A stretch of DNA of 64,000 bases from a virus (Duplodnaviria; Heunggongvirae; Uroviricota; Caudoviricetes), in IMG/VR virus record IMGVR_UViG_3300045988_005640. One strand, 5' to 3'. A program made the position numbers and the translations under genes. Position 1 is the stretch's first letter, and each line of letters opens with the position of its first letter. The notes under the pieces are model-generated. The model did no database searches and was not told the origin of the DNA. It saw only the letters and a list, made by a program, of their open reading frames with translations. This document shows, one piece after another, positions 4,419 through 9,791 of this stretch.

Positions 4419-4495
4419 CTCTGTTTAGCTCAGCTTGGTAGAGCGTTCCGTTTGGGGCGGTAAGGCCGGAGGTTCAAGTCCTCCAACAGAGACCA
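4419..4495 (+). tRNA. tRNA-Pro (anticodon TGG)
   Basis: Hand fold: acceptor CTCTGTT/AACAGAG (7 bp, C1-G72), T-arm GGAGG-TTCAAGT-CCTCC, anticodon loop TTTGGGG, CCA encoded. Confidence 0.75.
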
Positions 4496-4502
4496 AATTA
4501 AT

Positions 4503-4580
4503 GTTCCAGTAGACAAAATGGTAAAGTCACCACTCTTTCAAAGTGGATATCTGAGGGTTCAAATCCCTTCTGGAACGCCA
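4503..4580 (+). tRNA. tRNA-Glu (anticodon TTC)
   Basis: Acceptor GTTCCAG/CTGGAAC, anticodon stem CCACT/AGTGG with loop CTTTCAA, T-loop TTCAAAT, CCA encoded. Confidence 0.75.
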
Positions 4581-4587
4581 GTTTTGA

Positions 4588-4660
4588 CAGAAGACCAATT
4601 ACAGCAAACTTAATCTTATTCATCTGAAGGTAAATCGGACAAAGAAGAGATTTGGTCTGG
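4588..4660 (+). repeat. stem-closed element, unit 1 (CAGAAGACC..TACAGCAA..GGTCTGG)
   Basis: 7-bp stem AGACCAA (4592-4598) with TTGGTCT (4652-4658) closing a 53-nt AT-rich loop; TTGACA overlaps the 5' box. Confidence 0.55.
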
Positions 4661-4671
4661 TCATTAAGAAT

Positions 4672-4748
4672 TGCGGGTATAGAGAAAGGGCGTCTCACAT
4701 GTCTCATTAGCATGGTATCGGCAGGTTCGACTCCTGCACCCGCCTCCA
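4672..4748 (+). tRNA. tRNA-Met-like (anticodon CAT), irregular
   Basis: T-arm GCAGG-TTCGACT-CCTGC, acceptor 3' ACCCGCC + T + CCA; anticodon stem CATGT/GCATG with loop CTCATTA (T at position 37); 1-72 is a U.C mismatch and the D-arm register is ambiguous. Confidence 0.5.
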
Positions 4749-4754
4749 AATTTG

Positions 4755-4819
4755 CAGAAGACCGTATTCAGCAATAAAATACTTTTTGCGGATAAAAGAA
4801 AAAAAAAAACACGGTCTGG
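4755..4819 (+). repeat. stem-closed element, unit 2
   Basis: Stem AGACCGT (4759-4765) with ACGGTCT (4811-4817); loop holds TTCAGCAA, TAAAAT and an A11 run; TTGCAG-N17-TAAAAT promoter-like arrangement overlaps the 5' box. Confidence 0.55.
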
Positions 4820-4830
4820 CAATGTATTAA

Positions 4831-4907
4831 GGTTAGGAAGCACATAAGGTATGTGCGGTCGCCTGTTAAGCGAATGGCACAGGGTTCGAATCCCTGACTA
4901 ACCGCCA
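4831..4907 (+). tRNA. tRNA-Asn (anticodon GTT)
   Basis: D-stem GCAC/GTGC, anticodon loop CTGTTAA, T-arm CAGGG-TTCGAAT-CCCTG, acceptor GGTTAGG/ACTAACC (G7.A66 mismatch, A at position 8), CCA encoded. Confidence 0.65.
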
Positions 4908-4916
4908 AATTTAAAT

Positions 4917-5004
4917 GTGTCGTTATCCCGTAGATGGTAGCGGTGGGGACTGTAAATCCCTTGTCATTGAGACTCGGTAGGTTCGACTCCTACACGGCAC
5001 ACCA
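4917..5004 (+). tRNA. tRNA-Tyr (anticodon GTA), class II with long variable arm
   Basis: Acceptor GTGTCGT/ACGGCAC, anticodon stem GGGGA/TCCCT with loop CTGTAAA, 15-nt variable arm, T-arm GTAGG-TTCGACT-CCTAC, CCA encoded. Confidence 0.65.
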
Positions 5005-5009
5005 ATAAA

Positions 5010-5087
5010 GGTTATGTAGTTTAATTTGGTTAAAATACTCCCCTGTCACGGGAGATGATGAGGGTTCAAATCCCTTCGTAACCGCCA
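5010..5087 (+). tRNA. tRNA-Asp (anticodon GTC)
   Basis: Acceptor GGTTATG/CGTAACC, anticodon stem CTCCC/GGGAG with loop CTGTCAC, T-loop TTCAAAT, CCA encoded. Confidence 0.75.
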
Positions 5088-5113
5088 ATTTTGAGAGGGC
5101 TATTTAGCCCCTC

Positions 5114-5146
5114 CCTTAAAGGGTTCTTACGAGTATCCTTTAAAGG
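5114..5146 (+). other. conserved hairpin, copy 1 (near-palindromic stem CCTTAAAGG / CCTTTAAAGG, loop TTCTTACGAGTAT)
   Basis: Directly follows a GC hairpin (5095-5113) after tRNA-Asp; the loop motif TTCTTACGAG recurs at 8688-8697. Confidence 0.5.
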
Positions 5147-5148
5147 AG

Positions 5149-5222
5149 CAGAAGACCAAATACAGCAAGAATGTATGAAATTTCAAGCCAATTTAATTTT
5201 GAAAATTTAAAACTTGGTCTGG
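5149..5222 (+). repeat. stem-closed element, unit 3
   Basis: Stem AGACCAA (5153-5159) with TTGGTCT (5214-5220); loop begins AATACAGCAA. Confidence 0.55.
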
Positions 5223-8432: not shown

Positions 8433-8440
8433 AGATTTAA

Positions 8441-8515
8441 AGGGGATTAGTTTACAAGGTTAAAACCTCGGTCTTTGAAATCGAAGAAGTTGGTTCAATT
8501 CCAACATCCCCGCCA
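8441..8515 (+). tRNA. tRNA-Gln (anticodon TTG)
   Basis: D-stem GTTT/AAAC, anticodon stem TCGGT/ATCGA with loop CTTTGAA, T-arm GTTGG-TTCAATT-CCAAC; acceptor AGGGGAT/ATCCCCG has an A1.G72 mismatch and the 3' end reads CCA without a clear discriminator. Confidence 0.55.
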
Positions 8516-8517
8516 AT

Positions 8518-8596
8518 GCTCCATTACTCCAATTGGCAGAGAGGCCAGACTTAAAATCTGTGTTATGTATCGGTTCGAATCCGATATGGAGTACCA
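8518..8596 (+). tRNA. tRNA-Leu (anticodon TAA), short variable loop (7 nt)
   Basis: Acceptor GCTCCAT/ATGGAGT, anticodon loop CTTAAAA, T-arm ATCGG-TTCGAAT-CCGAT, discriminator A, CCA encoded. Confidence 0.55.
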
Positions 8597-8601
8597 AATT
8601 T

Positions 8602-8677
8602 AGCGGCATAGCATAACTGGCAATGCAGCAGTCTCTGAAGCTGTCTTATTAAGGTTCAAATCCTTATGCCGCTGCCA
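8602..8677 (+). tRNA. tRNA-Gln (anticodon CTG)
   Basis: Acceptor AGCGGCA/TGCCGCT (perfect), D-stem GCAT/ATGC, anticodon stem GCAGT/GCTGT with loop CTCTGAA, T-arm TAAGG-TTCAAAT-CCTTA, CCA encoded. Confidence 0.7.
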
Positions 8678-8680
8678 CTT

Positions 8681-8706
8681 CTAAGGATTCTTACGAGAGT
8701 CCTTAA
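8681..8706 (+). other. conserved hairpin, copy 2 (stem TAAGGA/TCCTTA, loop TTCTTACGAGAG)
   Basis: Same loop motif as 5124-5136; begins 4 nt after the CCA of tRNA-Gln(CTG). Confidence 0.5.
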
Positions 8707-8708
8707 AT

Positions 8709-8784
8709 GTGGCCTTATCATAAACGGTAATGACCCATGCTGTGAACATGGTCTATACGGGTTCAAATCCCGTAGGTCACCCCA
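8709..8784 (+). tRNA. tRNA-His (anticodon GTG)
   Basis: Acceptor GTGGCCT/AGGTCAC, D-stem TCAT/ATGA, anticodon stem CCATG/CATGG (perfect) with loop CTGTGAA, T-arm ACGGG-TTCAAAT-CCCGT, CCA encoded. Confidence 0.75.
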
Positions 8785-8789
8785 ATTTA

Positions 8790-8866
8790 TAGTCCAAGTA
8801 GCTTATATGGTTAAAGCGCGTGTCTGAAAAACATGAGAAGAGGGTTCAAATCCCACTGGACTACCA
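8790..8866 (+). tRNA. tRNA-Phe (anticodon GAA), acceptor register uncertain
   Basis: D-stem GCTT/AAGC, anticodon stem CGTGT/ACATG with loop CTGAAAA, T-loop TTCAAAT; the acceptor pairs as TAGTCCA/TGGACTA but the 8-9 spacing is off by one. Confidence 0.5.
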
Positions 8867-9178
8867 ATTTCAAAGGTGCTTAATGAAAGAGATGACAGAA
8901 CAAGGTAAGGAGATTTTCAATCTCTTAAAAACCGGTAAAGGGTTTTCTAACCCCTTATTACTGGTGCAGCAGTTCTCGGTGGAACCGTAGCTGCCTCTAC
9001 ATCACTTGTAAGCTCTATTAGCTCTGTATCAGACCCTACAGTAAAGGATAAGCTTGTTGCTGCTGGACTTACAACAGTTCTGCTTAACAGCTTTACCACG
9101 AGTCTGACAAGCACTACATCAACTACCAAAACACTAACAGATTACGGTCAAAAATCCATTGATGAGTTTTCATCACGT

Positions 9179-9616
9179 ATGCAGGTAGCAAAAGGTTATT
9201 CTAATGTTATGGGTGCAGCAGGTGAACAAGTTGGCTGTACACCATTTAGTGGTATTATGGGTGTTGCTACAGAGTATGGTCAAAAAGCTATTGATACGAT
9301 TAACAGTGCACTAGATAGTGTTAATGGTGTGTTAAGTGACTTACAAGATGCTATTGACAAAGGTCTTGATACTATTTCTGATTTAGCTGAGCAAGCTGTT
9401 AGTAAGATTAATGAAGGTATTTCAAAAATTACAGCTTATGCAGATGAAGTTGTGCAGATGATTGAAGAAGAAGCTGCTCTTATTGCAGAGTACCTTAAAA
9501 CGAATATCAATGGGTTCTTAGCAGGTATCTTACCAGACTGGTTTGATGATGCTTGTAAAACTGGTGTAATTGACACTATTGCAACACCAGAAATGAAGAA
9601 CGCATTACAGAAATAA
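9179..9616 (+). CDS. hypothetical protein (possibly N-terminally extended)
   Basis: 145-aa ORF from the first ATG; the same frame is open from 8951 without a canonical start, and a 35-aa ORF with a good RBS (ATG 8883) lies upstream in another frame. Confidence 0.45.
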   Translation: MQVAKGYSNVMGAAGEQVGCTPFSGIMGVATEYGQKAIDTINSALDSVNGVLSDLQDAIDKGLDTISDLAEQAVSKINEGISKITAYADEVVQMIEEEAALIAEYLKTNINGFLAGILPDWFDDACKTGVIDTIATPEMKNALQK

Positions 9617-9618
9617 AT

Positions 9619-9711
9619 GGAAGATTAACCCTAAAAGGTAAGGGAGCAGTTTGCTAAACTGCCAGTAGCTGAGAAATCGGTGTACCAGTTCAAGTCTGGT
9701 ATCTTCCTCCA
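9619..9711 (+). tRNA. tRNA-Ser (anticodon GCT), class II
   Basis: Acceptor GGAAGAT/ATCTTCC (perfect), D-stem CCC/GGG, anticodon stem GCAGT/ACTGC with loop TTGCTAA, 21-nt variable arm, T-arm ACCAG-TTCAAGT-CTGGT, CCA encoded. Confidence 0.7.
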
Positions 9712-9715
9712 ATTT

Positions 9716-9791
9716 GAATCCGTGACAGAAATGGCTATGTGCCTGTCTGCAAAACAGGTTTATAAGGGTTCGAGTCCCTTCGGATTCTCCA
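9716..9791 (+). tRNA. tRNA-Cys (anticodon GCA)
   Basis: Acceptor GAATCCG/CGGATTC (perfect), anticodon stem CCTGT/ACAGG with loop CTGCAAA, T-arm AAGGG-TTCGAGT-CCCTT, CCA encoded. Confidence 0.75.

What the first reader, a model, noticed from the sequence alone, without database searches (positions are those of the whole stretch)
4419..9791. Phage tRNA array of about 27 genes whose hand-assigned anticodons cover all 20 amino acids
Hand folding gives Pro, Glu, Met-like, Asn, Tyr, Asp, Lys(TTT), Met/Ile2(CAT), Ile, Arg(TCT), Trp-like, Ser(TGA), Leu(TAG), Lys(CTT), Ala, Gly, Thr, Val, Leu(CAA), Arg(ACG), Gln(TTG), Leu(TAA), Gln(CTG), His, Phe, Ser(GCT) and Cys. Nearly all encode the 3' CCA. Many share a mismatch at the 27-43 pair of the anticodon stem, and the two Lys genes share a 3-pair T-stem. 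A full decoding set is at the upper end of what tailed phages carry and suggests strong independence from host tRNA pools or defence against tRNA-targeting nucleases.
Basis: seen in the sequence. Interest (0 to 1): 0.55.

Follow-up and report, generated by a model that had tools for sequence, protein, structure and literature searches.

The report
Felix O1-type phage tRNA gene array
This is the well-known cluster of 26 tRNA genes of Felix O1-like phages, but its gaps also hold several conserved RNAs that I found annotated in no record or paper I checked, including an oddly built 27th tRNA-like gene with the tryptophan anticodon that would complete the set of 20 amino acids.

Summary
All encode CCA.

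The 27th gene, "Trp-like" (6218-6300), is rejected by ARAGORN and Rfam. It is nevertheless a conserved cloverleaf: 19 pairs, 99.6% paired, 8 pairs with compensatory changes. It has a CCA anticodon, G73 and 3' CCA, but an aberrant D region.

The window is a Felixounavirus, about 97% identical to phage Barry. Its array is annotated in hundreds of GenBank records and was analysed in print for a sister genus ("26 tRNAs, 19 amino acids"). The array itself is therefore already known and ordinary for this group, not at the upper end for phages.

The anticodons match A-ending codons that the phage uses far more than E. coli does (AGA 14-fold). Together they form an organelle-like minimal decoding set.

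New details found in the gaps:
- the non-canonical tRNA-Trp-like gene;
- four Y-RNA-like structured RNAs, one with YrlA topology, downstream of a Ro60-fold protein gene (2838-4253);
- a tmRNA-like tag template (ANDNVFLAVA**, 5845-5880) with no tRNA-like domain.

None of these functions has been tested.

The parts
2838..4253 (+). Ro60-fold protein gene (471 aa; Pfam DUF2828 + DUF7788), directly upstream of the array
   Evidence: Pfam. AlphaFold2 model pLDDT 87.6, pTM 0.88. The top 10 Foldseek PDB hits are all Ro60/TROVE (9l5y, 2i91, 1yvp, 2nvo), E 2.5e-7 to 7e-6, TM up to 0.64. The positionally equivalent Bas63 gp130 was reported as Ro60-like.
4272..4392 (+). Two sigma-70-like promoters (4272-4300, 4363-4392) ahead of tRNA-Pro
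   Evidence: Consensus scan, 10 of 12 matches each. Function is inferred.
4419..4495 (+). tRNA-Pro (UGG)
   Evidence: ARAGORN; Rfam 57.7 bits.
4503..4580 (+). tRNA-Glu (UUC)
4585..4663 (+). Y-RNA-like unit A: helix P1, AGA/G internal loop, helix P2 (AGACCAA/TTGGTCT), UUACAGCAA, inner hairpin
   Evidence: Motif search gives 4 hits against 0.04 expected. Fold. Pair counts.
4672..4748 (+). tRNA (CAU), 'Met-like': U1.C72 mismatch, U73, U37, 3-nt linker before the D stem
   Evidence: ARAGORN. No Rfam hit. Conserved in relatives.
4752..4822 (+). Y-RNA-like unit B
4831..4907 (+). tRNA-Asn (GUU)
4917..5004 (+). tRNA-Tyr (GUA), long variable arm
5010..5087 (+). tRNA-Asp (GUC)
5146..5225 (+). Y-RNA-like unit C1
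5233..5370 (+). Y-RNA-like unit C2 with YrlA topology: basal helices, V hairpin, T arm 5292-5308, capped acceptor-like hairpin 5309-5326, D arm 5329-5343, then back to the basal helices
   Evidence: RNAalifold on 8 sequences; the acceptor-like hairpin covaries. MFE fold. Partial Rfam tRNA hit at 5259-5309, 22 bits.
5387..5511 (+). Long hairpin closed by an 18-bp perfect inverted repeat (5387-5404 / 5494-5511). Function unknown.
   Evidence: Read from the sequence. Not followed up.
5517..5592 (+). tRNA-Lys (UUU)
5598..5674 (+). tRNA (CAU): Met or Ile2, unresolved; U73
5676..5751 (+). tRNA-Ile (GAU)
5767..5795 (+). Promoter TTGACA-17-TATAGT
   Evidence: 11 of 12 matches, the best in the region. 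Conserved in 7 phages.
5802..5998 (+). tmRNA-like RNA without a tRNA-like domain. Tag reading frame 5845-5874 (ANDNVFLAVA), stops 5875-5880.
   Evidence: ARAGORN reports this tag in Moogle. Rfam tmRNA_permuted 29.2 bits and tmRNA 15.2 bits, both below threshold. Conservation and synonymous changes. Consensus fold.
5999..6075 (+). tRNA-Arg (UCU)
6177..6205 (+). Candidate promoter TTTACA-17-TAAGCT (TTGACA in relatives), 12 nt upstream of the Trp-like gene
   Evidence: Read from alignment A1. Annotated 'promoter' in phage AYO145A. Not found by the consensus scan.
6218..6300 (+). Non-canonical tRNA-Trp-like gene: acceptor GUGGGAC/GUCCCAU, G73, CCA; anticodon CCA at 6258-6260; C31.A39 mismatch (or a 9-nt loop); 3-bp D stem preceded by a near-invariant 9-10 nt insert; 4-bp T stem
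6314..6400 (+). tRNA-Ser (UGA)
6424..6765 (+). PD-(D/E)XK endonuclease-like ORF (113 aa) inside the array
   Evidence: Pfam PF11645, E 2.6e-17.
7011..7088 (+). tRNA-Leu (UAG)
7096..7171 (+). tRNA-Lys (CUU)
7177..7252 (+). tRNA-Ala (UGC)
7259..7333 (+). tRNA-Gly (UCC)
7341..7416 (+). tRNA-Thr (UGU)
7512..7586 (+). tRNA-Val (UAC)
7588..7665 (+). tRNA-Leu (CAA)
7780..7855 (+). tRNA-Arg (ACG)
7875..8432 (+). DUF7338 ORF (185 aa) inside the array
   Evidence: Pfam, E 1.2e-61.
8441..8515 (+). tRNA-Gln (UUG). The 3' acceptor strand is 1 nt shorter than in 7 relatives.
8518..8596 (+). tRNA-Leu (UAA)
8602..8677 (+). tRNA-Gln (CUG)
8709..8784 (+). tRNA-His (GUG)
8791..8866 (+). tRNA-Phe (GAA)
9619..9711 (+). 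tRNA-Ser (GCU)
9716..9791 (+). tRNA-Cys (GCA)
9954..9977 (+). Intrinsic-terminator-like hairpin plus T run after the array

Best explanation
The region is the conserved tRNA gene array of a Felixounavirus (Ounavirinae). It lies between a Ro60-fold protein gene and the large terminase gene.

Shown: 26 canonical tRNA genes lie on one strand, mostly 1-9 nt apart, each with a genomic CCA.

Inferred from that layout:
- They are transcribed as a few polycistronic precursors from sigma-70-like promoters (4272-4392, 5767-5795, about 6177-6205).
- They are cut out by host RNase P and 3'-processing enzymes and charged by host synthetases.

The anticodon set is not random. There is one U34 tRNA for each four-codon box, plus an I34-type Arg-ACG. 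There is a G34 and a U34 tRNA for the split boxes. There are three extra C34 tRNAs (Leu-CAA, Lys-CUU, Gln-CUG).

This is an organelle-like minimal decoding set. It boosts exactly the A-ending codons (and AAG, AGR) that this 39% G+C phage uses much more than E. coli does. The most likely function is to keep phage translation fast when host tRNAs are poorly matched, depleted or cleaved (inferred).

Tryptophan, the one amino acid missing from automated predictions, is represented by a 27th gene at 6218-6300. It is a diverged tRNA-Trp. It keeps the CCA anticodon with U33 and A37, G73, the 3' CCA and four covarying stems. It also carries a near-invariant 9-10 nt insert before a 3-bp D stem, a C31.A39 mismatch and a 4-bp T stem. 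I put the chance that it is charged with Trp and used in translation at about 0.55.

The spacers hold further conserved RNAs that are not tRNAs:
- four paralogous Y-RNA-like hairpin RNAs, one with the YrlA stem-V-T-acceptor-D layout, which are probable partners of the upstream Ro60-fold protein (about 0.5);
- a roughly 200-nt tmRNA-like RNA that encodes ANDNVFLAVA followed by two stops and has no tRNA-like domain (function unknown).
For: Identity of the array:
- It is 96-97% identical over 98% of its length to annotated Felixounavirus arrays. 403 phage records match, and 198 cover at least 80%.

tRNA calls:
- ARAGORN finds 26. Rfam finds 23 at gathering score.

Codon usage, 17,603 phage codons against 14,748 E. 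coli K-12 codons:
- Codons read by the phage tRNAs are enriched: AGA 14.2x, AGG 6.9x, ACA 4.5x, TCA 3.6x, AAG 2.6x, CTA and TTA 2.2x, CCA 1.9x.
- Standard wobble covers 76% of phage codons.
- If U34 reads all four codons of a family box, only ATA and CGG are left uncovered.

Trp-like gene:
- It is present in at least 231 phage records and annotated as a tRNA in none of those listed.
- My cloverleaf and an independent RNAalifold run agree.
- Across 14 distinct sequences from Felixouna-, Moogle- and Suspvirus, Pectobacterium Wc4-1 and Yersinia P778, 99.6% of cells are paired and 8 of 19 pairs show changes on both sides. Slid controls give 31-52% paired.
- The best non-self hit of its covariance model is the canonical tRNA-Trp of Erwinia phage phiEa104, at 39 bits. 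That tRNA shares the GGC-CUCCAAA-ACC anticodon arm.
- In 23 relatives the same slot, behind the same promoter, holds a different short-D-arm tRNA(CCA). Several records annotate that one as tRNA-Trp.

Ro60 fold.

Y-like RNAs:
- The motif occurs 4 times against 0.04 expected.
- The basal helices are 99.5% paired, with 5 covarying pairs across 20 sequences.
- Unit C2 has the YrlA layout.
- In a distant phage contig, two sub-threshold Rfam YrlA hits with the same (U)WCAGCAA layout lie just downstream of a DUF2828 gene.
- Wc4-1 and phiEa104 show no DUF2828-sized gene at the equivalent position and also lack the motif.

Tag RNA.
Against: - No expression, processing or aminoacylation data were available here.
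- ARAGORN and the Rfam tRNA model reject the Trp-like gene. Its D region departs from every standard tRNA. One relative (Barry) has CTA instead of CCA at the 3' end.
- TGG is not enriched in the phage: 12.3 against 13.2 per thousand.
- In Bas63 the tRNA genes were mostly dispensable on laboratory strains.
- The sequence diversity behind the covariation amounts to about 4-5 lineages, so the counts reflect few independent events.
- The Y-like units do not hit the Rfam YrlA model and lack the published GNCGAAN0-1G Ro-binding motif (PMC4201824).
- The tmRNA-like RNA has no tRNA-like domain, and all tmRNA model scores are below threshold.
Confidence: 0.8

Rival explanations
1. The Trp-like element is a decaying pseudogene. 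The array then serves only 19 amino acids, and Trp decoding relies wholly on the host's single tRNA-Trp gene.
For: - ARAGORN and Rfam reject it.
- Its features are aberrant: the D-region insert, the C31.A39 mismatch and an A.C mismatch at 49-65.
- Barry has CTA in place of CCA.
- Published counts give 19 amino acids (PMC12482277).
Against: - It is conserved in more than 230 genomes and in several genera.
- All four stems are maintained by compensatory changes, with 99.6% of cells paired.
- U33-CCA-A37 and the insert are near-invariant while the stems vary.
- It has its own conserved promoter.
- A pseudogene would not be expected to covary.
Confidence: 0.12
2. The Trp-like element is a functional tRNA-like RNA that does not decode. 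It could be a decoy or sponge for a host factor (a nuclease, a modification enzyme or TrpRS), or another ligand of the Ro60-fold protein. The near-invariant insert would be its specific recognition site.
For: - The near-invariant 9-10 nt insert suggests sequence-specific recognition rather than a spacer.
- A Ro60-fold protein and tRNA-like Y RNAs are encoded nearby.
- The Bas63 authors speculated that some 'tRNA' genes are Y RNAs.
Against: - It keeps what a decoding tRNA-Trp needs: the anticodon loop CUCCAAA, identical to E. coli tRNA-Trp (verifies the host sequence), plus G73, mostly A1-U72, and CCA.
- Acceptor and T helices add up to 12 stacked pairs in the 8/4 reading.
- In other phages the same slot holds a near-canonical tRNA-Trp.
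- It fills the only gap in an otherwise complete set.
Confidence: 0.25
3. The main selective value of the array is anti-defence. It would replace host tRNAs that are cleaved or depleted by anticodon nucleases and similar systems, rather than compensate for codon usage.
For: - The set is complete, going beyond the codons that are rare in the host.
- About half of the anticodon loops differ from the host's. The loops are identical to those listed for Sf14 in PMC12482277, Table 8.
- The neighbouring Ro60-fold gene counters a defence system (ppl) in Bas63.
- Precedents exist in other phages (van den Berg et al., cited in PMC12482277).
Against: - The Sf14 authors judged nuclease evasion unlikely for their host.
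- The strong match between the anticodons and phage-enriched codons already fits the compensation model.
- The two ideas are not exclusive.
Confidence: 0.3

Closest known systems
tRNA arrays of Felixounavirus, Mooglevirus and Suspvirus (Felix O1, wV8, Barry, Sf14, Moogle, phiSUSP1)
   Same: Same gene order, same 26 anticodons and the same position between the DUF2828 gene and the terminase gene. 96-97% nucleotide identity to Barry and Tribble.
   Different: Only small differences:
- a 1-nt deletion in tRNA-Gln(UUG);
- a broken DUF7217 gene;
- a 114-nt spacer with a 35-codon ORF before tRNA-Arg(ACG), shared with Felix O1 but not Barry;
- a PD-(D/E)XK ORF where relatives carry HNH endonuclease genes in other gaps.
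E. coli tRNA-Trp, the canonical phage tRNA-Trp of Erwinia phage phiEa104, and the short-D-arm tRNA-Trp of wV8, phiSUSP1 and the O157 typing phages
   Same: CCA anticodon in the loop CUCCAAA, G73, A1-U72 in most copies, and 3' CCA. It shares the GGC/ACC end of the anticodon stem, with the C31.A39 mismatch, with phiEa104.
   Different: - It has a near-invariant 9-10 nt insert between the acceptor and D stems.
- The D stem has 3 bp.
- The T stem has 4 bp, with a possible 8-bp acceptor stem.
- It is not recognised by ARAGORN or by the Rfam tRNA model.
Ro60 with YrlA-type bacterial Y RNAs (Chen et al. 2014, PMC4201824; Thermus phage phiLo Ro60, PMC12135203)
   Same: A Ro60-fold protein gene sits next to several small structured RNAs. 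One of them has a tRNA-like module in the order V, T arm, capped acceptor stem, D arm, closed by a long terminal helix.
   Different: - The protein is not detectable as TROVE by sequence (Pfam gives DUF2828/DUF7788).
- The RNAs do not hit Rfam YrlA.
- They carry CAGAAGACC...WCAGCAA instead of GNCGAAN0-1G.
- They are embedded in a tRNA array, 0.3-1.1 kb downstream of the gene.
tmRNA (SsrA), one-piece and two-piece forms
   Same: - Resume codon GCA, a 10-residue tag of the ANDxxxLAxA type, and two stops.
- The first 9 nt are identical to E. coli ssrA.
- There is an A-rich stretch upstream.
- The stop codons lie in a hairpin.
- A closing helix resembles P2.
   Different: No acceptor stem, no T arm and no CCA of its own. 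It is only about 200 nt long. Pseudoknots were not identified. All Rfam scores are below threshold.
Other large phage tRNA sets (T5, KVP40-like vibriophages, cluster C mycobacteriophages, huge phages)
   Same: Many tRNAs clustered on one strand, interspersed with homing endonuclease genes and small ORFs. DUF2828 homologues lie near tRNA arrays in Vibrio phage phi-pp2 and in a 142-kb contig.
   Different: Different lineages and different anticodon sets. The comparison of numbers is from my own knowledge and was not tested here.

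Membership tests
Canonical bacterial-type tRNA (the 26 genes) | Cloverleaf accepted by a dedicated predictor, with an assignable anticodon | tested here: met
   ARAGORN of 26.
Canonical bacterial-type tRNA (the 26 genes) | Score at or above the Rfam RF00005 gathering threshold | tested here: met
   23 of 26 pass. Tyr and Ser-UGA score best against tRNA-Sec, below its threshold. The CAU tRNA at 4672 gets no hit.
Canonical bacterial-type tRNA (the 26 genes) | Expression, processing and aminoacylation | not testable with these tools
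   Needs tRNA-seq or acid-gel Northern blots of infected cells.
Felixounavirus-type tRNA array | Synteny and high nucleotide identity with annotated arrays | tested here: met
   96.7% identity over 98% of the region to Barry, with the same order of 26 tRNAs.
tRNA-Trp (element 6218-6300) | Anticodon CCA flanked by U33 and a purine at 37 | tested here: met
   UCCAA is invariant in 14 distinct sequences.
tRNA-Trp (element 6218-6300) | Seven-nt anticodon loop closed by a 5-bp stem | tested here: inconclusive
   Either a C31.A39 (or C.C) mismatch with a 7-nt loop, or a 9-nt loop on a stem shifted by one pair. The 26-44 pair covaries.
tRNA-Trp (element 6218-6300) | TrpRS identity elements G73 and A1-U72 (E. 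coli; from my own knowledge of Himeno et al. 1991) | tested here: met
   G73 is present in all. The 1-72 pair is A-U in 8, G-U in 4 and G-C in 2 of the 14 sequences.
tRNA-Trp (element 6218-6300) | Standard D arm with a 2-nt linker (U8, N9) | tested here: not met
   A 9-10 nt insert (GAUGUUAAGA) precedes a 3-bp D stem.
tRNA-Trp (element 6218-6300) | Recognition by tRNA predictors | tested here: not met
   ARAGORN gives no call. The Rfam tRNA model gives no hit, and tRNA-Sec gives 23 bits, E 0.46. tRNAscan-SE was not available.
tRNA-Trp (element 6218-6300) | Charging with tryptophan | not testable with these tools
   Needs an in vitro TrpRS assay or in vivo acylation analysis.
Ro60 / TROVE proteins (ORF 2838-4253) | Ring of HEAT-like repeats plus a vWA domain (the Ro60 fold) | tested here: met
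   The top 10 Foldseek hits are all Ro60, over the full length, using a model with pLDDT 87.6.
Ro60 / TROVE proteins (ORF 2838-4253) | Sequence match to TROVE or to solved Ro60 chains | tested here: not met
   Pfam gives DUF2828 + DUF7788 only. phmmer against PDB sequences finds nothing relevant.
Ro60 / TROVE proteins (ORF 2838-4253) | Binding of Y RNA or misfolded RNA | not testable with these tools
   Needs RIP-seq or EMSA.
YrlA-type Y RNA (unit C2, 5233-5370) | Encoded next to a Ro60 gene | tested here: met
   It lies 1.0 kb downstream on the same strand. Units A and B lie 0.3-0.5 kb downstream.
YrlA-type Y RNA (unit C2, 5233-5370) | Terminal helix enclosing V, T arm, capped acceptor-like stem and D arm, in that order | tested here: met
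   RNAalifold consensus. The acceptor-like stem has compensatory changes.
YrlA-type Y RNA (unit C2, 5233-5370) | Match to Rfam RF02553 and the GNCGAAN0-1G motif | tested here: not met
   No YrlA hit at E up to 10. The motif here is CAGAAGACC...WCAGCAA. A distant phage's counterparts score 40 and 36 bits against a gathering score of 69.
tmRNA (RNA 5802-5998) | Tag reading frame with resume codon and terminal stops, under coding constraint | tested here: met
   ANDNVFLAVA** compared with ANDAQFLAVA** in phiEa104: 4 synonymous changes, 1 stop-to-stop change and 2 non-synonymous changes.
tmRNA (RNA 5802-5998) | tRNA-like domain (acceptor stem with G3.U70, T arm, CCA) | tested here: not met
   None in the RNA. 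The window has no spare T-loop element apart from unit C2 and the Trp-like gene.
tmRNA (RNA 5802-5998) | Rfam tmRNA gathering score | tested here: not met
   29.2 and 15.2 bits against a gathering score of 47.

The most novel reading that the evidence does not exclude
The 'tRNA array' is really a composite RNA toolkit, and three of its parts would be new.

1. A structurally new tRNA-Trp, with an 8/4-type acceptor/T helix, a 9-10 nt insert before a 3-bp D stem and an open 31-39 pair. If it is charged and used, the phage set covers all 20 amino acids.
2. A Ro60-fold protein with four dedicated Y-RNA-like partners, embedded among the tRNAs. This would be an RNA surveillance or anti-defence module.
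3. A tmRNA-like tag template that lacks its own tRNA-like domain, yet is conserved at the peptide level across Ounavirinae. That implies a split or trans-acting tagging system, or a decoy for the host's system.
Probability: 0.25. Interest if true: 0.7.

Novelty: already known. Interest (0 to 1): 0.4.

Why it matters
The array itself adds nothing new. It is the standard Felix O1-type set, already annotated and already analysed for codon usage.

What matters is what a close look at the spacers shows. The published figure of "19 amino acids" for these widely used therapeutic and typing phages probably reflects the limits of tRNA predictors. A conserved, covarying tRNA(CCA) gene of unusual build sits where some relatives have an annotated tRNA-Trp.

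If it is charged, it would be a natural example of how far the D region of a bacterial-type tRNA can depart from the norm and still work. It would also make the set a complete, minimal decoding kit.

The Y-RNA-like RNAs give the Ro60-like anti-defence protein of Bas63 (gp130) concrete candidate RNA partners that can be tested directly.

The domain-less tmRNA-like tag template is unexplained. It is conserved enough to deserve an experiment.

Tried and rejected
- UGA read-through by a Hirsh-suppressor-like tRNA-Trp. The window has 16 TGA-terminated ORFs, and all have in-frame extensions of only 0-13 codons. There is no sign of programmed read-through.
- Rfam YrlA on unit C2. No hit even in a 201-nt search.
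- Sequence search of the Ro-like ORF against PDB chains. Nothing relevant. Only the fold comparison worked.
- A tRNA-like domain for the tmRNA-like RNA. The window has no spare T-loop element. The Rfam permuted-tmRNA alignment simply borrows the T arm of tRNA-Ile. ARAGORN's permuted tmRNA in Moogle spans three tRNA genes and is probably a chimera of unit C2 and the tag.
- ARAGORN with the intron option on the 'long tRNA-like' RNAs of relatives. Nothing found.
- A bare 14-mer scan of IMG/VR gave mostly chance hits. My first gapped pattern had too narrow a gap and found nothing. The corrected pattern found 24 contigs.
- Identity of the two CAU tRNAs (initiator, elongator Met or Ile2). Not resolved:
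  - 4672 has a 1-72 mismatch, as initiators do, but lacks the three G-C pairs.
  - 5598 has three G-C pairs shifted by one position.
  - Both have U73.
  - ATA is as rare in the phage as in E. coli (RSCU 0.14 against 0.12), which argues weakly against an Ile2 tRNA.
- I looked for pairing partners of the near-invariant insert GAUGUUAAGA by eye, in the leader, the trailer and the tag RNA. No conserved partner was found.

Full report
**What the window is.** The stretch 4300-9900 matches 403 phage records. The best matches are Escherichia phages Barry and Tribble, at 96.7% identity over 98% of the query. 198 records cover at least 80% of the query. These are Felixounavirus (Ounavirinae). In Barry the same stretch is annotated with 26 tRNA genes, lying between two 'Phage conserved protein' ORFs (a split copy of the 471-aa gene) and the large terminase gene. 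The window has the same layout: ORF 2838-4253, then the array, then a terminase-like ORF from 10221.

**Check of the observation.**
- The Rfam tRNA model passes its gathering score for 23 of them.
- Tyr and Ser-UGA have long variable arms and align better to the tRNA-Sec model, below its threshold. The first CAU tRNA (4672-4748) gets no Rfam hit. Even so, it is predicted by ARAGORN here and in all relatives.
- Every gene has a genomic CCA.
- ARAGORN's structures confirm that both Lys tRNAs have only three standard pairs in the T stem.
- A 27-43 mismatch occurs in Asn, Lys-UUU, Ile, Gly and Leu-UAA.
- The predictors give 19 amino acids, with no Trp. [quoted passage not shown]

**The 27th gene.**

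Read as a tRNA it has these parts:
- an acceptor stem GUGGGAC/GUCCCAU, then G73 and CCA;
- a 10-nt stretch GAUGUUAAGA;
- a 3-bp D stem (CUC/GAG) with an 8-nt loop containing GG;
- an anticodon arm AACGG-CCUCCAAAA-CCGUU;
- a 5-nt variable region;
- a 4-bp T stem with loop UUCAACU.

*Conservation and covariation.* The segment is conserved in 259 phage records, of which 231 cover at least 80% of the 221-nt query. In the records listed it carries no tRNA annotation. Eleven distinct sequences support my cloverleaf: 99.5% of cells are paired and 8 of 19 pairs changed on both sides, while slid controls give 31-51%. RNAalifold predicted the same fold independently. It added a G8-C pair that would give an 8-bp acceptor stem and a 4-bp T stem. 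With more loci, including Yersinia phage P778 and Pectobacterium phage Wc4-1, there are 14 distinct sequences. These are 99.6% paired, again with 8 covarying pairs. That last alignment was fitted to the model, so it leans towards the structure. The underlying lineages number only four or five.

*What varies and what does not.* The stems vary. The core UCCAA of the anticodon loop is invariant, and the insert differs at one base in one of the 14 sequences.

*Relation to tRNA-Trp.* The best hit of the covariance model outside the family is the canonical tRNA-Trp of Erwinia phage phiEa104, at 39 bits. That tRNA has the same GGC-CUCCAAA-ACC arm, so the open 31-39 position is an old trait of the lineage. 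The loop CUCCAAA equals that of E. coli tRNA-Trp. I verified the host sequence against 5,426 genomes, and it is a single-copy gene.

*The alternative occupant of the slot.* In phiSUSP1, wV8, O157 typing phages 8, 11, 12 and 15, VpaE1_ev78 and others (23 records), the same slot behind the same promoter holds a different, short-D-arm tRNA(CCA). Its acceptor stem is nearly that of E. coli tRNA-Trp. Some of those records annotate it as tRNA-Trp, others as tRNA-OTHER or Pseudo. Those phages lack the 6218-6300 form.

*Reading.* I read this as two alternative occupants of one 'Trp slot'. The element is therefore not a chance resemblance and is very unlikely to be a pseudogene. Whether it is charged cannot be decided here.

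**How the array most likely works.**

*Transcription and processing.* Spacing of 1-9 nt within blocks, a single strand and encoded CCA fit polycistronic transcription and host processing (inferred). Promoter-like sites lie at 4272-4300, 4363-4392 and 5767-5795. A terminator-like hairpin lies at 9954-9971.

*Codon usage.* I compared 17,603 codons from 70 long ORFs of the window with 14,748 codons from 42 annotated E. coli K-12 genes. The codons cognate to the phage tRNAs are the ones the phage over-uses:

| Codon | Phage use relative to E. coli |
|---|---|
| AGA | 14.2x |
| AGG | 6.9x |
| ACA | 4.5x |
| TCA | 3.6x |
| AAG | 2.6x |
| CTA, TTA | 2.2x |
| CCA | 1.9x |
| GTA | 1.6x |
| GGA | 1.5x |
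| GCA | 1.4x |

*Shape of the set.* Each of the seven four-codon boxes other than CGN has one U34 tRNA, and CGN has an ACG (inosine-type) tRNA. The split boxes have G34 and U34 tRNAs. Leu-CAA, Lys-CUU and Gln-CUG are extras. With standard wobble the set reads 76% of phage codons. If U34 reads whole family boxes, as in organelles and Mycoplasma (my own knowledge), only ATA and CGG remain uncovered. This is a minimal complete decoding set, with Trp supplied only by the non-canonical gene.

*Function.* This fits both codon compensation and autonomy when host tRNAs are depleted or cleaved. The data here cannot separate the two. Evidence from relatives is mixed:
- The Sf14 study favoured codon bias and translational efficiency over nuclease evasion.
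- In Bas63 the tRNA genes were mostly non-essential on four laboratory strains, and the authors regard them as conditionally useful.

**What else is in the spacers.**

*(a) Ro60-fold gene.* ORF 2838-4253 is DUF2828 + DUF7788 by Pfam. An AlphaFold2 model built on 43 homologues (pLDDT 87.6) has Ro60 proteins as its ten best PDB matches, among them the Ro60 of Thermus phage phiLo. [quoted passage not shown] Those authors guessed that some of the tRNA genes might be Y RNAs.

*(b) Four Y-RNA-like units.* They lie in the first 1 kb of the array, at 4585-4663, 4752-4822, 5146-5225 and 5233-5370.
- They share the motif CAGAAGACCNNNTWCAGCAA, with 4 matches against 0.04 expected.
- They share a common base: a 4-bp outer helix, an AGA/G internal loop, and a 7-bp helix AGACCNN/NNGGTCT.
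- Across 20 distinct paralogous and orthologous sequences these 11 pairs are 99.5% paired, and 5 pairs changed on both sides.
- The largest unit folds, alone and in an 8-sequence consensus, into terminal helices enclosing a V hairpin, a T arm, a capped acceptor-like hairpin that covaries, and a D arm. This is the order described for YrlA Y RNAs (PMC4201824).
- The Rfam YrlA model does not detect it.
- In a 142-kb phage contig whose DUF2828 protein is 47% identical, two RNAs 0.3-0.5 kb downstream of that gene hit YrlA at 40 and 36 bits. They show the same 'stem, (U)WCAGCAA, T, acceptor, D, stem' layout.
- DUF2828 genes of three distant phages all lie beside tRNA arrays.
- Wc4-1 and phiEa104 show no DUF2828-sized gene at this position, and they also lack the motif.
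- The Y RNAs are therefore not among the annotated tRNAs but between them. Binding to the protein is inferred, not shown.

*(c) tmRNA-like RNA.* Behind the strongest promoter of the region (5767-5795) lies a roughly 200-nt RNA containing GCA AAC GAC AAT GTT TTT CTG GCA GTA GCT TGA TAG, which reads ANDNVFLAVA followed by two stops.
- ARAGORN reports this very tag in Moogle.
- Two Rfam tmRNA models align to it, below threshold.
- It is conserved in seven phages, with GAC/GAT and TGA/TAA changes.
- phiEa104 encodes ANDAQFLAVA**. That differs from the window by four synonymous changes, one stop-to-stop change and two adjacent non-synonymous changes.
- The consensus fold has a closing helix, the stop codons in a hairpin, and two hairpins with compensatory changes.
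- The RNA has no tRNA-like domain, and the window has no spare one.
- I cannot say how it works. Options are a trans-acting or split tag template, a decoy, or a captured fragment kept for another reason.

*(d) ORFs.* A PD-(D/E)XK endonuclease-like ORF (6424-6765), a DUF7338 ORF (7875-8432) and a broken DUF7217 ORF also interrupt the array. Relatives carry HNH endonuclease genes in other gaps, so the array is a landing site for mobile endonuclease genes.

**Comparison with what is known, and verdict.** The array is a member of the Felixounavirus tRNA array by synteny and near-identity. It is already known and is typical rather than extreme for tailed phages.

The items that I did not find annotated or described are the following:
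- the non-canonical form of the Trp gene, of which a more canonical allele is annotated in some relatives;
- the Y-RNA-like units, which were anticipated only as a guess in a preprint;
- the tag RNA, for which I found no report among the papers that mention both tmRNA and Felixounavirus.

I score the finding itself as modestly interesting because of these by-products. Their functions are inferred from structure, conservation and context only.

Noticed in passing
window 5767-5998: A tmRNA-like RNA lies behind a near-consensus promoter. Its tag frame at 5845-5880 encodes ANDNVFLAVA plus two stops, and the first 9 nt equal E. coli ssrA. It has no tRNA-like domain. It is conserved in Felixouna-, Moogle- and Suspvirus, and in Erwinia phage phiEa104 as ANDAQFLAVA**, mostly through synonymous changes.
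   Followed up: partly
window 4585-4663, 4752-4822, 5146-5225, 5233-5370: Four paralogous structured RNAs share the motif CAGAAGACC...WCAGCAA...GGTCTGG and covarying basal helices. The last one has the YrlA (Y RNA) layout, with a capped acceptor-like hairpin between a T arm and a D arm.
   Followed up: yes
window 2838-4253: This 471-aa DUF2828/DUF7788 protein has a Ro60 (TROVE + vWA) fold. It is intact here but split into two ORFs in phage Barry. Homologues in distant phages also lie next to tRNA arrays.
   Followed up: yes
window 8441-8515: tRNA-Gln(UUG) has CCCC where seven relatives have CCCCC in the 3' acceptor strand. This leaves the acceptor stem one nucleotide short. It may be a real mutation or a homopolymer sequencing error. 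In the relatives the 1-72 position is a mismatch (A.C or U.U), which fits GlnRS needing an open first pair.
   Followed up: partly
window 8884-8990 and 9179-9616: The DUF7217 gene is a single 244-aa ORF in Barry, Moogle, Sf16 and mistaenkt. Here it is broken into a 35-codon start and a 145-aa C-terminal ORF, by a frameshift or a sequencing error.
   Followed up: partly
window 6424-6765: A PD-(D/E)XK endonuclease-like ORF (Pfam PDDEXK_5) sits between tRNA-Ser(UGA) and tRNA-Leu(UAG). Relatives carry HNH homing endonuclease genes in other gaps of the array instead.
   Followed up: partly
window 7666-7789: A 114-nt spacer holds a 35-codon basic ORF with a good Shine-Dalgarno sequence, and the ORF runs into the 5' end of tRNA-Arg(ACG). 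The spacer is present in Felix O1 and absent in Barry (5-nt gap). In Moogle, Sf16 and SUSP1 it is replaced by a 70-codon ORF that also overlaps the tRNA.
   Followed up: no
window 5387-5511: An 18-bp perfect inverted repeat (ATTATCTTTGTAGATAAG / CTTATCTACAAAGATAAT) encloses about 90 nt, just upstream of tRNA-Lys(UUU). Function unknown.
   Followed up: no
window 5115-5145 and 8680-8706; L005:4965-4990: Short hairpins with the recurring loop motif TTCTTACGAG (GGTTCTTACGAGTATCC, GGATTCTTACGAGAGTCC) lie just ahead of RNA genes. They could be processing or regulatory signals.
   Followed up: no
L003:3806-3935, L006:4806-4930, L005:4586-4752, L136:9145-9262 and 8009-8149 (absent from the window): Relatives carry an extra 'long tRNA-like' RNA: an acceptor stem and a T arm, followed by CCA in the Moogle, phiSUSP1 and phiEa104 copies, with a 70-130 nt insert in place of the anticodon arm. 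ARAGORN calls nothing in the three copies I tested (Moogle, phiSUSP1, phiEa104). One Yersinia phage copy has G3.U70. It could be the missing tRNA-like partner of the tag RNA.
   Followed up: partly
L006:5106-5176 with 5191-5595: In phiSUSP1 the alternative short-D-arm tRNA-Trp is followed directly by an HNH endonuclease gene. This suggests that the two Trp alleles are exchanged as a mobile cassette.
   Followed up: no
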